Part shown: positions 34,764 through 37,308 of the stretch, in pieces | Layout of the letters: every line of letters begins with the position of its first letter | How positions within the stretch are numbered: position 1 is the first letter of the stretch | NCBI RefSeq assembly: GCF_054482595.1 | Contig: NZ_CM137008.1 | Reading direction: 5' to 3' (one strand) | DNA: 64,000 nt | The notes under the pieces: model-generated | Seen by the model: the letters and a program-made list of their open reading frames with translations, nothing else | The model's database searches: none | What the model was told of the DNA's origin: nothing | Translations under genes and position numbers: made by a program

Positions 34764-34807
34764 CGCTTTTCAGCGACGTAGGACGAATGTCCGTTGTTAC
34801 AAAGAGC
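34764..34807 (-). promoter_or_regulatory. nutR (boxA GCTCTTT ... boxB hairpin CGCUGAAAAGCG)
   Basis: Minus-strand cgctctttgtaacaacg...ctacgtcgctgaaaagcg; near-identical architecture to nutL candidate upstream of N. Confidence 0.6.
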
Positions 34808-34815
34808 GGGGTTAC

Positions 34816-35043
34816 TTATGCTGCCAGAAGGTTCTTTTTGCTTATTTCAAGCAATTCGCTTGCTTGATATTTGCCACCAGAAATCTCTTCGATTTTTGAG
34901 GCGTATTTCGTTTTCCCAAAAAACTCAGTCTTAGGGAGGAAGCCGTTTTTGAGCCACTTATAGACAGCCCTTTCGCTAACTCCACAAGCCTTCGCAACTT
35001 CAGGGATGCCGACACCTTTAATCGGCTCATCAAGATTTTGCAT
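34816..35043 (-). CDS. cro: Cro-like repressor (HTH)
   Basis: 75-aa ORF divergent from cI; HTH segment IPEVAKACGVSERAVYKWLKNG. Confidence 0.8.
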   Translation of the reverse strand: MQNLDEPIKGVGIPEVAKACGVSERAVYKWLKNGFLPKTEFFGKTKYASKIEEISGGKYQASELLEISKKNLLAA

Positions 35044-35122
35044 AGGAATATCCCTTTTTCGTACTTTTAGTACGCATTATGGTTGAACTGAAAGTTTTTG
35101 CAAGTGCTTTAGTATCGTACTC
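35044..35122. promoter_or_regulatory. oR/pR/pRM divergent control region; cI mRNA probably leaderless
   Basis: 79-bp cro-cI intergenic; palindrome cgtac-ttttag-tacg and related sites; tagtat 7 nt before the cI ATG. Confidence 0.55.
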
Positions 35123-35830
35123 ATGGTTCAGAATGAAAAAGTGCGCAAAGAATTCGCCCAGCGGCTAGCGCAAGCCTGTAAAGAAGCTGGTCTTGATGAA
35201 CATGGTAGGGGTATGGCCATAGCCCGTGCCCTTTCTCTTTCGTCCAAAGGCGTTAGCAAATGGTTTAATGCTGAGTCTTTACCGCGTCAGGAAAAAATGA
35301 ATGCGCTTGCGAAATTTCTAAACGTTGATGTTGTTTGGCTTCAGCACGGCACTTCGTTAAATGGAGCGAATGATGAAGATACTCTTTCATTTGTTGGCAA
35401 ATTAAAAAAAGGGTTAGTGCGCGTGGTTGGTGAGGCAATTCTTGGTGTTGATGGTGCCATCGAGATGACCGAAGAGCGCGATGGGTGGCTCAAGATTTAT
35501 AGTGATGATCCAGATGCCTTTGGTCTTCGTGTGAAAGGAGACAGCATGTGGCCCAGAATAAAATCAGGAGAATATGTACTCATTGAGCCTAACACCAAAG
35601 TATTCCCGGGGGATGAGGTGTTTGTCAGAACCGTTGAAGGACACAACATGATCAAGATTCTTGGCTATGACAGAGATGGAGAATACCAATTTACAAGCAT
35701 CAACCAGGACCACAGGCCAATAACGTTACCTTATCATCAAGTAGCAAAGGTGGAGTATGTGGCTGGTATTCTGAAGCAATCTCGTCATCTGGATGACATC
35801 GAGGCAAGGGAGTGGCTGAAAAGTTTGTGA
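35123..35830 (+). CDS. cI: CI-type prophage repressor (HTH plus LexA/S24 peptidase-like C-terminal domain), non-lambda immunity
   Basis: 235-aa ORF; N-terminal HTH and C-terminal LexA/S24-like autocleavage domain (GDSM motif); differs from remembered lambda cI. Confidence 0.85.
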   Translation: MVQNEKVRKEFAQRLAQACKEAGLDEHGRGMAIARALSLSSKGVSKWFNAESLPRQEKMNALAKFLNVDVVWLQHGTSLNGANDEDTLSFVGKLKKGLVRVVGEAILGVDGAIEMTEERDGWLKIYSDDPDAFGLRVKGDSMWPRIKSGEYVLIEPNTKVFPGDEVFVRTVEGHNMIKILGYDRDGEYQFTSINQDHRPITLPYHQVAKVEYVAGILKQSRHLDDIEAREWLKSL

Positions 35831-35938
35831 CTTCAAGTACGCGACAAGCCCCGTCCTTCAGGGCGTGGAGGATGTCAAAATAACTTTAAATAACACACCA
35901 CCAACATTTAACACATTGAATTAAAAAACCTACAATAT

Positions 35939-36274
35939 TTGATGAGAGGCGTTATGGAACCGGTCAAAATTAAACCATCTGTGGATTATATTGAAACCTA
36001 TGCGGACTTCGCTAGTTTTGCTCCACTACCGGGAGCGGAAAAAAATCTCATTTGTATACATTTTATCGCAAACAAGTCAATACCTGCGGTACTATCCCAA
36101 AATGATATACCAGATCAACCAGGTAGAGCGAATATGCAGATAGGCTCTGTAAATGAACTCAATCAGCAATGCACTGTGATAATGCCAATGGCACAACTAA
36201 AGGCTCTTCAGGAGAATATAGTTCTTCTTTTCGAACAATTAGAGGCACAAAACTCTAATGGAGCGAAGTCGTAA
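35939..36274 (+). CDS. Hypothetical protein A of the cI-downstream operon (likely start at MEPVKIK, 35954; about 106 aa)
   Basis: ORF preceded by gagagg SD-like sequence; stop overlaps next start (TAATG); no recognisable domain. Confidence 0.65.
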   Translation: MMRGVMEPVKIKPSVDYIETYADFASFAPLPGAEKNLICIHFIANKSIPAVLSQNDIPDQPGRANMQIGSVNELNQQCTVIMPMAQLKALQENIVLLFEQLEAQNSNGAKS

Positions 36275-36957
36275 TGCAACAACCGGAAGAAGTAGGTGAT
36301 TTAACTATTACTTACAAAACATCAAGTATTGTTAAACCACTGCAAGTTTCCCTGAATAACGTTAATACTCGCGATTTCATGATGTTCATGGAAACAGCAA
36401 AAGGTAATCTGTTTTCTACGCCTATTTCCTCTTATTCACCAAAAAACATGGTGGATGATGCGACCAATTCCCAGCTAACTGCTACAATCGTAGATAAAGG
36501 AGGGGTTGCCGATTGTAAAGGACAATCTAATGTTATCCCACCGTACGAGGAAACTCCTATACAGGGAACCGCAATGTCCGATTTGAGCAGAAACGAAATA
36601 CAGGCACTTCTGAAGGCAAATAAAGCTGAAGTGGATGCAGTGGCCTCAAAAATGCAGGCTGATATGGCCAAATGGCGTGAACTAATGGCTTCAGATATAA
36701 AGGAGATGAAGCATTTAGTTGTTACTCAGCACGAACAAATCAACAGTCGTCTGGACATACAATCGAGTAGAATTGAGAGTGCCCTTGACTCCCAATCAAA
36801 AAAGATCGATGCAGCTCTTTCTGTTCAAGAGGCAAAGTTAGAAGGTAAGCTTAGTGATGTTAAGCTTGATATAATCAAATGGGCCCTTGGCTTGCCAGCA
36901 TTAGCATTTGCTGTATATAAAATCTACGGATTGCTCTCTGGAGTCTCAACCCCCTAA
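36274..36957 (+). CDS. Hypothetical protein B of the cI-downstream operon: coiled-coil protein with C-terminal transmembrane anchor (227 aa)
   Basis: ORF translationally coupled to the upstream gene; heptad-like stretch in residues ~110-200; hydrophobic tail IIKWALGLPALAFAVYKIYGLLSGV. Confidence 0.7.
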   Translation: MQQPEEVGDLTITYKTSSIVKPLQVSLNNVNTRDFMMFMETAKGNLFSTPISSYSPKNMVDDATNSQLTATIVDKGGVADCKGQSNVIPPYEETPIQGTAMSDLSRNEIQALLKANKAEVDAVASKMQADMAKWRELMASDIKEMKHLVVTQHEQINSRLDIQSSRIESALDSQSKKIDAALSVQEAKLEGKLSDVKLDIIKWALGLPALAFAVYKIYGLLSGVSTP

Positions 36958-36963
36958 TACACA

Positions 36964-36989
36964 CCCGGCCTCAGTGCCGGGTTTTCTTT
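36964..36989 (+). terminator. Rho-independent terminator after the cI-downstream operon (tIMM-like)
   Basis: cccggc ctcagt gccggg followed by ttttcttt. Confidence 0.7.
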
Positions 36990-37198
36990 GCCCAACGTTC
37001 GCCCACCTAAAAACACATAATCGATTGTATTTATTGAAAAACTGATAGATACAACTTGCTAAACAGTGCAACCCTGATCCCTGCCCCATCACCTTCATCC
37101 TCAACATTTACAAAAATAAAATACCTTATATATCAAAACCATATCTCGAGAAAACGAATGAACAACAAAATTTCGTACTTATGGTTCTTGATTGTATC

Positions 37199-37227
37199 GA
37201 ACCAATAGTTCATTATTATCACCATCA
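37199..37227 (+). promoter_or_regulatory. Candidate pL (-35 TTGATT, 17-nt spacer, -10 CATTAT) with overlapping oL-like sites
   Basis: Read in sequence; tcgtacttatggttc motif shared with oR region. Confidence 0.4.
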
Positions 37228-37263
37228 GCAGGACGCTGGAAGCCAAACGGAACAGACTGGCAG

Positions 37264-37308
37264 GCTCTTTAAACAACGTCGAACTCTCGACTACGTGGCT
37301 GAAAAGCC
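37264..37308 (+). promoter_or_regulatory. nutL (boxA GCTCTTT ... boxB hairpin GGCUGAAAAGCC)
   Basis: gctctttaaacaacg...ctacgtggctgaaaagcc aligns with nutR candidate. Confidence 0.6.

What the first reader, a model, noticed from the sequence alone, without database searches (positions are those of the whole stretch)
34764..37308. Matched nutL/nutR sites with extended shared architecture
Both candidate nut sites share boxA GCTCTTT, then AACAACG, a variable short hairpin, CTACGT, and a boxB hairpin with GAAAA loop (nutL GGCUGAAAAGCC at 37297..37308; nutR CGCUGAAAAGCG at 34764..34775 on the minus strand). The conserved spacer elements between boxA and boxB are longer than the ~8 nt I recall for lambda, consistent with a non-lambda N specificity in this mosaic.
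Basis: seen in the sequence. Interest (0 to 1): 0.45.

Follow-up and report, generated by a model that had tools for sequence, protein, structure and literature searches.

The report
Known Stx-phage-type nutL/nutR antitermination sites
The two matched RNA signals are real: they are the left and right N-utilisation (nut) sites of an E. coli lambdoid prophage, of the long-spacer two-hairpin kind already annotated in phage VT2-Sakai and studied in phage H-19B, so the finding is correct but ordinary.

Summary
Both sites read boxA (S-GCUCUUU), AACAAC, a short hairpin, UACG, then a boxB hairpin. Each lies downstream of its early promoter: nutL (37263-37309, +) follows pL and precedes N; nutR (34808-34763, -) lies between cro and cII.

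One correction: boxB folds as a 5-bp stem with a GAAA tetraloop, not a GAAAA loop. The spacer is 24-25 nt, against 8-9 in lambda.

The N protein (37408-37680) is 99% identical to VT2-Sakai N, 58% to H-19B N, 43% to P22 gp24 and 31% to lambda N. GenBank AP000422 (VT2-Sakai) already annotates the same sequences as putative nutL and nutR. The nutR spacer hairpin is identical to that of H-19B nutR, an experimentally used nut site described as having two hairpins.

Across 37 distinct relatives both hairpins are paired in every case, with many compensatory changes. The N arginine-rich motif co-varies with the boxB loop (GAAA versus GACAA). The spacer hairpin most likely acts by folding away the extra nucleotides, so the effective boxA-boxB distance matches ordinary nut sites.

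Verdict: already known, low interest. The only mildly open point is the uncharacterised N/boxB specificity of the natural tetraloop class.

The parts
37188..37216 (+). pL early leftward promoter (TTGATT-17 nt-CATTAT), overlapped by operator half-sites
   Evidence: Read from the sequence. Homologous to the 'putative major leftward promoter' annotated in VT2-Sakai. oL and oR share CGTACnnATGGTTC. It falls below the threshold of the consensus scan.
37263..37271 (+). nutL boxA (GGCUCUUUA)
   Evidence: Matches the consensus boxA CGCUCUU(U)A / rrn UGCUCUUUA quoted in PMC2724277.
37272..37277 (+). nutL conserved single-stranded 5' flank AACAAC
   Evidence: Conserved in relatives found with boxA/boxB anchors only.
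37278..37291 (+). nutL spacer hairpin GUCGA-ACUC-UCGAC
   Evidence: Fold of -5.5 kcal/mol. Covariation across the family.
37292..37295 (+). nutL 4-nt linker UACG
   Evidence: The distance from hairpin to boxB is fixed at 4 nt in all 58 unique family members.
37296..37309 (+). nutL boxB: 5-bp stem UGGCU/AGCCA with GAAA tetraloop
37408..37680 (+). N antiterminator gene (90 aa; ARM MSRKTKFKGTAASRRRARRANLQ)
   Evidence: Pfam N_peptide 5e-32. 99% identical to VT2-Sakai N.
35076..35103 (-). pR early rightward promoter (TTGCAA-16-CATAAT)
   Evidence: Operator palindromes.
34816..35043 (-). cro gene; its stop codon lies 7 nt upstream of nutR boxA
34800..34808 (-). nutR boxA (CGCUCUUUG)
34793..34798 (-). 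nutR conserved 5' flank AACAAC
34781..34792 (-). nutR spacer hairpin GGAC-AUUC-GUCC, identical to the H-19B nutR spacer hairpin
34777..34780 (-). nutR 4-nt linker UACG
34763..34776 (-). nutR boxB: 5-bp stem UCGCU/AGCGA with GAAA tetraloop
34708..34733 (-). tR1-like hairpin region (UAUGCG-UUUCCA-CGCAUA), the likely first terminator overcome from nutR
   Evidence: Homologous to the 'putative rho dependent terminator for pR transcript' annotated in VT2-Sakai. Sequence.

Best explanation
These are the functional nutL and nutR sites of a lambdoid E. coli prophage. They belong to the H-19B/VT2-Sakai class, with a long spacer and two hairpins.

Proposed mechanism (inferred, not assayed here):
1. RNA polymerase starting at pL or pR transcribes the site.
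2. In the RNA, boxA (SGCUCUUU) is bound by NusB/S10.
3. The single-stranded AACAAC and UACG stretches are contacted by NusA.
4. The boxB hairpin (5-bp stem, GAAA GNRA tetraloop) is bound by the N-terminal arginine-rich motif of the prophage's own N protein.
5. N then rides with the polymerase and suppresses tR1 and downstream terminators.

The extra hairpin in the spacer is read as a structure and not as a sequence. By folding, it removes 12-14 nt from the linear path. The effective boxA-to-boxB distance becomes about 10-12 nt (AACAAC + UACG), comparable to the 8-11 nt of lambda and P22. This matches my recollection of the 'reducer' stem-loop idea of Neely & Friedman 2000.

Shown here: position, sequence, fold, homology, covariation, and N/boxB co-variation. 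Inferred: factor binding and antitermination activity.
For: - Position in the early transcripts and next to N, cro and cII.
- Depositor annotation of the same sequence as nutL and nutR in VT2-Sakai, with nutR identical and nutL differing by one base in the hairpin loop. HK106 annotates nutR boxA and boxB.
- H-19B nutR carries the identical spacer hairpin and CUACGU. It is an experimentally active nut site described as having 'two hairpins', with NusA/N protection of spacer and boxB and Rho protection of the spacer (PMC3526286). H-19B N mutations R3H, R15C/P and R18P abolish antitermination; these residues are conserved in this N.
- Family survey: at least 120 viral contigs carry the motif, often as divergent pairs 2-3.5 kb apart.
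- Covariation: 9 distinct outer-stem sequences, all paired in 33/33 unique sequences. On the Infernal alignment 100% of 318 cells are paired against 75% in shuffles (0/500). The covariation score is 0.547 against 0.122 (0/500). Slid controls give 30-50%.
- Loops vary from 3 to 7 nt, while the flanks and the 4-nt linker are fixed. That is the pattern expected if only the existence of the hairpin matters.
- The N ARM co-varies with the boxB loop class.
Against:
- The Neely & Friedman 2000 paper could not be read. The 'reducer' interpretation, and its report that deleting the dyad has little effect, rest on my recollection.
- The strict conservation of the AACAAC and UACG flanks and of the closing G-C pair could mean active recognition, not a passive reducer.
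- Part of the flank conservation is imposed by my search patterns. The anchor-only scan relieves this bias, but it samples mostly related enterobacterial phages.
- The thermodynamic MFE of nutL is an alternative fold that destroys boxB (-14.9 vs -11.6 kcal/mol).
- The Infernal alignment used for one search is fitted to the model structure.
Confidence: 0.9

Rival explanations
1. The spacer hairpin with its invariant flanks (AACAAC, closing G-C pair, UACG, fixed 4-nt distance to boxB) is an actively recognised element. It would be a specific docking platform for NusA-SKK, or in nutR part of the Rho rut site, and not a passive length reducer. This is not exclusive of the nut assignment.
For: The flanks and the closing pair are invariant or nearly so, even in the anchor-only scan and in H-19B-type nutL sites that lack boxA altogether. 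In H-19B nutR the spacer is protected by NusA+N, and by Rho alone (PMC3526286). The rrn spacer ACAAUUUA binds NusA-SKK (PMC2724277).
Against: Stem sequence and loop length and sequence vary freely. This argues against sequence read-out of the hairpin itself. My recollection of Neely & Friedman 2000 is that deleting the dyad had little effect; this is unverified.
Confidence: 0.3
2. The alternative fold, in which boxA (SGCUCUUU) pairs with the loop and 3' arm of boxB (GAAAAGCS), is a regulatory switch. Free RNA would mask both boxA and boxB, and binding of NusB/S10 or N would release the other element, making assembly cooperative.
For: The alternative fold is the predicted MFE for nutL (-14.9 vs -11.6 kcal/mol) and is isoenergetic for nutR (-11.9 vs -11.7). 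It is the MFE in 10 of 27 boxA-bearing family variants. The title of Neely & Friedman 2000 mentions 'alternative NUT RNA structures'.
Against: The pairing follows almost automatically from consensus boxA GCUCUUU being near-complementary to GAAAAGC. The first boxA base does not consistently co-vary with the boxB stem: for example L062, L063 and L115 have C in boxA but G in boxB. Local hairpins form first during transcription. Nothing has been tested.
Confidence: 0.12
3. The hairpins are not nut sites. They are unrelated elements such as terminator, RNase III or rut structures that happen to resemble each other.
For: The reverse complement of the nutL spacer hairpin is picked up as a weak terminator-like site on the - strand. 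In H-19B, nutR overlaps a rut site.
Against: There are two copies in the window against 0 expected by chance. Their positions relative to pL/N and cro/cII are canonical. Both have boxA and a GNRA boxB. The boxB loop co-varies with the N ARM across phages. Homologues are annotated by depositors and used experimentally.
Confidence: 0.03

Closest known systems
nutL and nutR of Stx2 phage VT2-Sakai (GenBank AP000422, features 'putative N-utilization leftward/rightward')
   Same: nutR is identical from boxA through boxB. nutL is identical except for one extra A in the spacer-hairpin loop. N is 99% identical, with one K/E change. pL, tR1 and cII context are the same.
   Different: The cro/cI immunity module here is 933W-like, not VT2-Sakai-like. 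The homology switch maps to nutR boxA.
nutR and nutL of Stx1 phage H-19B (AF034975; Neely & Friedman 2000; used by the Sen laboratory, PMC3526286 and PMC4499122)
   Same: Long spacer with a hairpin between boxA and boxB. The nutR spacer hairpin GGACAUUCGUCC and CUACGU are identical. The order ACAAYG-hairpin-CUACG-boxB is the same in nutL. N belongs to the same lineage, at 58% identity with the same C-terminal half.
   Different: H-19B boxB has a GACAA pentaloop, whereas here it is a GAAA tetraloop; in nutR this is a single C indel. H-19B boxA is degenerate in nutR (CGCUAUUU) and absent in nutL, whereas both boxA copies here are consensus-like. The N ARM differs: GNSRSRRRERLKAKA versus GTAASRRRARRANLQ.
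P22 nutL/nutR with gp24
   Same: Same N protein family (43% identity, shared C-terminus LPxVALYAAGxRKSKQxTAR). boxA is CGCUCUUUA. The boxB stem is xGCU/AGCx.
   Different: P22 has a spacer of about 11 nt with no hairpin and a GACAA pentaloop. The covariance model of the present element gives no hit in the P22 locus at E<=0.001.
Lambda nutL/nutR with lambda N
   Same: Same logic and order: boxA, spacer, boxB, in the pL and pR transcripts. boxB has a 5-bp stem and a purine-rich GNRA-like loop.
   Different: Lambda has an 8-9 nt spacer without a hairpin, a GAAGA/GAAAA pentaloop, boxA CGCUCUUA, and an N only 31% identical. There is no covariance-model hit in the lambda locus.

Membership tests
Lambdoid N-utilisation (nut) site | One copy in each early transcript: downstream of pL and upstream of N; downstream of pR/cro and upstream of tR1/cII | tested here: met
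   ORF map and Pfam assignments. Promoters and operators. Exactly two hits in the window, on opposite strands.
Lambdoid N-utilisation (nut) site | boxA matching CGCUCUU(U)A | tested here: met
   nutR is CGCUCUUUG and nutL is GGCUCUUUA. Consensus as quoted in PMC2724277.
Lambdoid N-utilisation (nut) site | boxB hairpin with a 5-bp stem and GNRA-type purine-rich loop, downstream of boxA | tested here: met
   UGGCU-GAAA-AGCCA and UCGCU-GAAA-AGCGA. The two outer boxB stem pairs show compensatory changes across the family, but pairing of those two was required by my filter.
Lambdoid N-utilisation (nut) site | Cognate N protein with an N-terminal arginine-rich motif encoded next to nutL | tested here: met
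   Pfam PF25694 at 5e-32. ARM SRRRARR. The ARM class co-varies with the boxB loop class in 102 nutL-N pairs.
Lambdoid N-utilisation (nut) site | N- and Nus-dependent readthrough of downstream terminators | not testable with these tools
   Needs a reporter or in vitro transcription assay.
H-19B-type extended-spacer (two-hairpin) nut site | Long spacer containing a dyad symmetry (hairpin) between boxA and boxB | tested here: met
   Spacers of 24-25 nt with 4-5 bp hairpins. 100% paired across 37 distinct relatives with compensatory changes.
H-19B-type extended-spacer (two-hairpin) nut site | Sequence homology to the H-19B nut spacer (ACAAYG-hairpin-CUACG immediately before boxB) | tested here: met
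   Direct reading of AF034975. Alignment. The covariance model hits both H-19B sites.
H-19B-type extended-spacer (two-hairpin) nut site | boxB with the H-19B/P22 GACAA pentaloop | tested here: not met
   The loop here is GAAA at both sites. So this is the VT2-Sakai subclass and not the H-19B specificity.
H-19B-type extended-spacer (two-hairpin) nut site | Reduced host-factor requirement, as in the title of Neely & Friedman 2000; NusB/S10 independence and boxA dispensability are my recollection | not testable with these tools
   The paper is not held. Both boxA copies here are consensus-like, unlike H-19B, so this property may not transfer.
Lambda-type nut site (strict sense) | 8-9 nt unstructured spacer and GAAAA/GAAGA pentaloop boxB | tested here: not met
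   Searches compared. No covariance-model hit in the lambda locus.

The most novel reading that the evidence does not exclude
The VT2-Sakai-class N/boxB pair may be a distinct, so far uncharacterised RNA-recognition specificity. It would be a natural true GNRA tetraloop boxB (GAAA, no extruded base) read by the ARM M[ST]R[KR]TxFxG[ST][AS]xxRRRxRRxxLQ. It would be functionally orthogonal to the GACAA pentaloop of P22/H-19B and the pentaloops of lambda. In nutR the two classes differ by a single C indel in the loop.
Probability: 0.4. Interest if true: 0.3.

Novelty: already known. Interest (0 to 1): 0.12.

Why it matters
It matters little beyond correct annotation. It confirms that this prophage has an intact N/nut early-gene switch of the type that drives delayed-early expression in Stx phages.

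The comparative data give independent support, through many compensatory changes, for the idea that the extra spacer hairpin is selected as a structure.

They also show that N arginine-rich motifs and boxB loop types form matched classes. This could be used to pick orthogonal peptide-RNA tethering pairs.

Tried and rejected
- Rfam (evalue mode, 30-42 kb) has no nut family. It found only the cIII thermoregulator and a chance snoRNA hit.
- Neely & Friedman 2000 is not held, so its details could not be verified.
- A PDB sequence search with N gave no hits. This is probably because the N-peptide chains fall under the 20-residue cut-off.
- MAFFT alignment of family members (A4) did not keep the stems in register. 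It was replaced by an Infernal alignment built from an ungapped 8-sequence seed.
- The loose anchor patterns returned many chance hits and had to be filtered for a complete boxB stem.
- I looked for co-variation between the first boxA base and the boxB stem, which would have supported the alternative fold. It was not consistent, so I rejected it as evidence.
- The consensus promoter scan missed pL, which scores 8/12. pL was placed by reading the sequence and by homology to the VT2-Sakai annotation.
- Literature searches for a described natural tetraloop boxB or for VT2-Sakai nut sites found nothing specific in the held library.
- Phage 21 nut sites were not fetched.
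Full report
**Observation.** Reading the window at the stated coordinates confirms every element.

- nutL, + strand: boxA GGCUCUUU (37263-37270), AACAACG (37272-37278), hairpin GUCGA-ACUC-UCGAC (37278-37291), CUACGU (37291-37296), and GGCUGAAAAGCC (37297-37308).
- nutR, - strand: boxA CGCUCUUU (34808-34801), AACAACG (34798-34792), hairpin GGAC-AUUC-GUCC (34792-34781), CUACGU (34781-34776), and CGCUGAAAAGCG (34775-34764).

The composite pattern ACAAYG-N8-18-CTACGNNGCTGA occurs twice in the window and in none of 100 shuffles. A covariance model of the element, run with filters off, finds only these two strong hits in 64 kb: 59.7 and 34.7 bits.

One correction. Including the flanking U and A, boxB is a 5-bp stem closed on a GAAA tetraloop, not a GAAAA loop. 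The spacer is 25 nt (nutL) and 24 nt (nutR). Lambda has 8-9 nt and P22 about 11 nt.

**Context.** The region is a lambdoid immunity region:

- cI-like repressor, 35123-35830 (+)
- cro, 34816-35043 (-)
- cII, 34381-34677 (-)
- O and P further on the - strand
- N, 37408-37680 (+), Pfam N_peptide 5e-32

pR (35103-35076, -) and pL (TTGATT-17-CATTAT, 37188-37216, +) carry related operator half-sites CGTACnnATGGTTC. Both sites therefore lie in the early transcripts. nutL is about 40 nt after the pL start and 99 nt before N. nutR starts 7 nt after the cro stop codon and lies before a tR1-like hairpin. The same 3-kb stretch is 100% identical in several E. coli chromosomes, and 38 complete genomes carry at least 80% of it.

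**Identity with known sites.** BLAST against phage records shows the N/nutL segment is 95.6-98% identical to VT2-Sakai and relatives. The nutR-cII segment is 99-100% identical to VT2-Sakai and phage 2851.

GenBank AP000422 (VT2-Sakai) annotates these sequences as 'putative N-utilization leftward' and 'rightward'. In alignment, nutR is identical and nutL differs by one A in the hairpin loop. HK106 annotates the homologous nutR boxA and boxB.

H-19B (AF034975) has the same nutR spacer hairpin and CUACGU, but a GACAA boxB loop and a degenerate boxA. Its nutL reads ACAACG-AUUCGAAUAUGAAU-CUACG-boxB without a boxA.

The H-19B nutR is an experimentally active site. The Sen laboratory states it has 'two hairpins'. 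[quoted passage not shown] They also map antitermination-defective N mutations (R3H, S11F, R15C/P, R18P) to the ARM (PMC3526286). Neely & Friedman 2000 is the primary description (citation confirmed), but it is not held.

N here is 99% identical to VT2-Sakai N, 58% to H-19B N, 43% to P22 gp24 and 31% to lambda N. R3, R15 and R18 are conserved.

**Family survey.** The motif pattern hits at least 120 viral contigs, commonly as divergent pairs 2-3.5 kb apart.

To avoid circularity I also scanned with anchors only on boxA (GCTCTT) and boxB, leaving a free 5-35 nt spacer. Every nut-like GAAA-tetraloop boxB had a 24-27 nt spacer with ...ACG-hairpin-C[U/C]ACG. GACAA boxBs occur with both the short P22-type and the long H-19B-type spacer. 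Spacer architecture and loop type are therefore separable modules.

All 58 unique members fold a spacer hairpin that ends exactly 4 nt before the boxB stem. Nine distinct outer-stem sequences are all paired, in 33/33 unique sequences.

On an Infernal alignment of 115 hits (37 distinct rows):

- 100% of 318 cells are standard pairs, against 75% in shuffles (0/500).
- The covariation score is 0.547 against 0.122 (0/500).
- Slid controls give 30-50% paired.
- Three of the four spacer-hairpin pairs and two of the five boxB pairs show changes on both sides.

Caveats: the alignment is fitted to the model, pairing of the two outer boxB pairs was required by my filter, and the inner boxB pairs were fixed by the search patterns. 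Lambda and P22 loci give no hit with this model at E<=0.001.

**N/boxB matching.** In 102 nutL-N pairs, GAAA boxBs always go with ARMs of the form M[ST]R[KR]TxFxG[ST][AS]xxRRRxRRxxLQ. GACAA boxBs go with P22-type (GNAKTRRHERRRKLAIE) or H-19B-type (GNSRSRRRERLKAKA) ARMs. This supports 'non-lambda N specificity'. It also shows the window belongs to the VT2-Sakai subclass and not the H-19B specificity.

**Mechanism.** The best-supported reading is a standard N antitermination site. boxA would bind NusB/S10. The single-stranded flanks would bind NusA; the rrn spacer ACAAUUUA, which continues consensus boxA just as AACAAC does here, binds NusA-SKK (PMC2724277). boxB would bind the N ARM.

In the spacer hairpin, the stem co-varies and the loop varies from 3 to 7 nt. 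The flanks, the closing G-C pair and the 4-nt linker stay fixed. That is the signature of a structure selected for its existence only. Folding removes 12-14 nt, leaving AACAAC+UACG (about 10-12 nt), which is close to ordinary spacer lengths. This matches my recollection of the 'reducer' stem-loop proposal of Neely & Friedman 2000, which I could not verify.

Two alternatives remain open and are scored as rivals. One is active recognition of the flanks and hairpin by NusA or Rho. The other is a regulatory boxA:boxB alternative fold. That fold is the MFE for nutL (-14.9 vs -11.6 kcal/mol) and for 10 of 27 boxA-bearing variants. It follows almost automatically from GCUCUUU being near-complementary to GAAAAGC, and it lacks consistent covariation.

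**Verdict.** The feature is already known: it is annotated in VT2-Sakai, and the same architecture has been characterised experimentally in H-19B. Interest is low. The only mildly open point is the uncharacterised recognition specificity of the natural GAAA-tetraloop boxB class; I found no description of it in the held literature.

Noticed in passing
window 34801-34809 (nutR boxA): BLAST match boundaries suggest a mosaic junction inside boxA. Phages with a 933W-type cro match the window down to about 34801. VT2-Sakai/2851-type phages, which have a different cro, match from about 34809 onward at 99-100%. The overlap is CCGCTCTTT. The conserved boxA may serve as a short homology patch for module exchange.
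   Followed up: partly
window 37263-37309 and 34763-34808: Consensus boxA (SGCUCUUU) can pair with the loop and 3' arm of a GAAA-type boxB (GAAAAGCS). This fold destroys boxB while keeping the spacer hairpin. It is the predicted MFE for nutL by 3.3 kcal/mol and in 10 of 27 boxA-bearing family variants.
   Followed up: partly
window 34763-34776 versus L005 5664-5678 (H-19B) and L001 (HK106): The nutR sites of the GAAA and GACAA classes are otherwise near-identical. They differ in boxB by a single C indel in the loop (UCGCUGAAAAGCGA vs UCGCUGACAAAGCGA). A one-base change in nutR may accompany a switch of N specificity class.
   Followed up: partly
L005 2790-2815 (-) and many viral loci (e.g. L011, L017, L044): H-19B-type nutL sites have no boxA. 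In its place is a conserved block CCAGGrCGGUGAAyAU. In H-19B itself the upstream UCACC pairs with GGUGA to give a third predicted hairpin. The window's nutL does not have this; it has a consensus-like boxA.
   Followed up: no
window 34323-34432 (+): An oop-like antisense RNA unit opposite the 3' end of cII. It has a promoter-like site TTGAGT-17-(TG)CATAAT at 34323-34351 and a strong intrinsic terminator at 34405-34432 followed by a T-run.
   Followed up: no
window 38967-39025 (+): Rfam Lambda_thermo (cIII thermoregulator), 88.5 bits, E 6e-21. It overlaps the start of small ORFs at 38980/38987.
   Followed up: no
window 35939-36982 (+): Two ORFs sit between cI and pL, in the position of lambda rexAB. 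One is 111 aa with no Pfam hit. The other is 227 aa with a weak CCDC90-like coiled coil and a hydrophobic C-terminus. They are followed by an intrinsic terminator at 36963-36982. This may be lysogen-expressed cargo of unknown function.
   Followed up: no
window 37320-37334 (+): A hairpin CCACA-UAAGC-UGUGG lies 10 nt after nutL boxB, followed by GAUGC. It is reminiscent of the boxC region (ACCACACCUAUGGUGU) downstream of lambda nutR.
   Followed up: no
window 30368-30384 (+): A partial covariance-model hit (11.8 bits, E 0.004) to the CAAC-hairpin-U half only (CAACGACAAUACUGUCU), with no boxB. It is probably chance.
   Followed up: no
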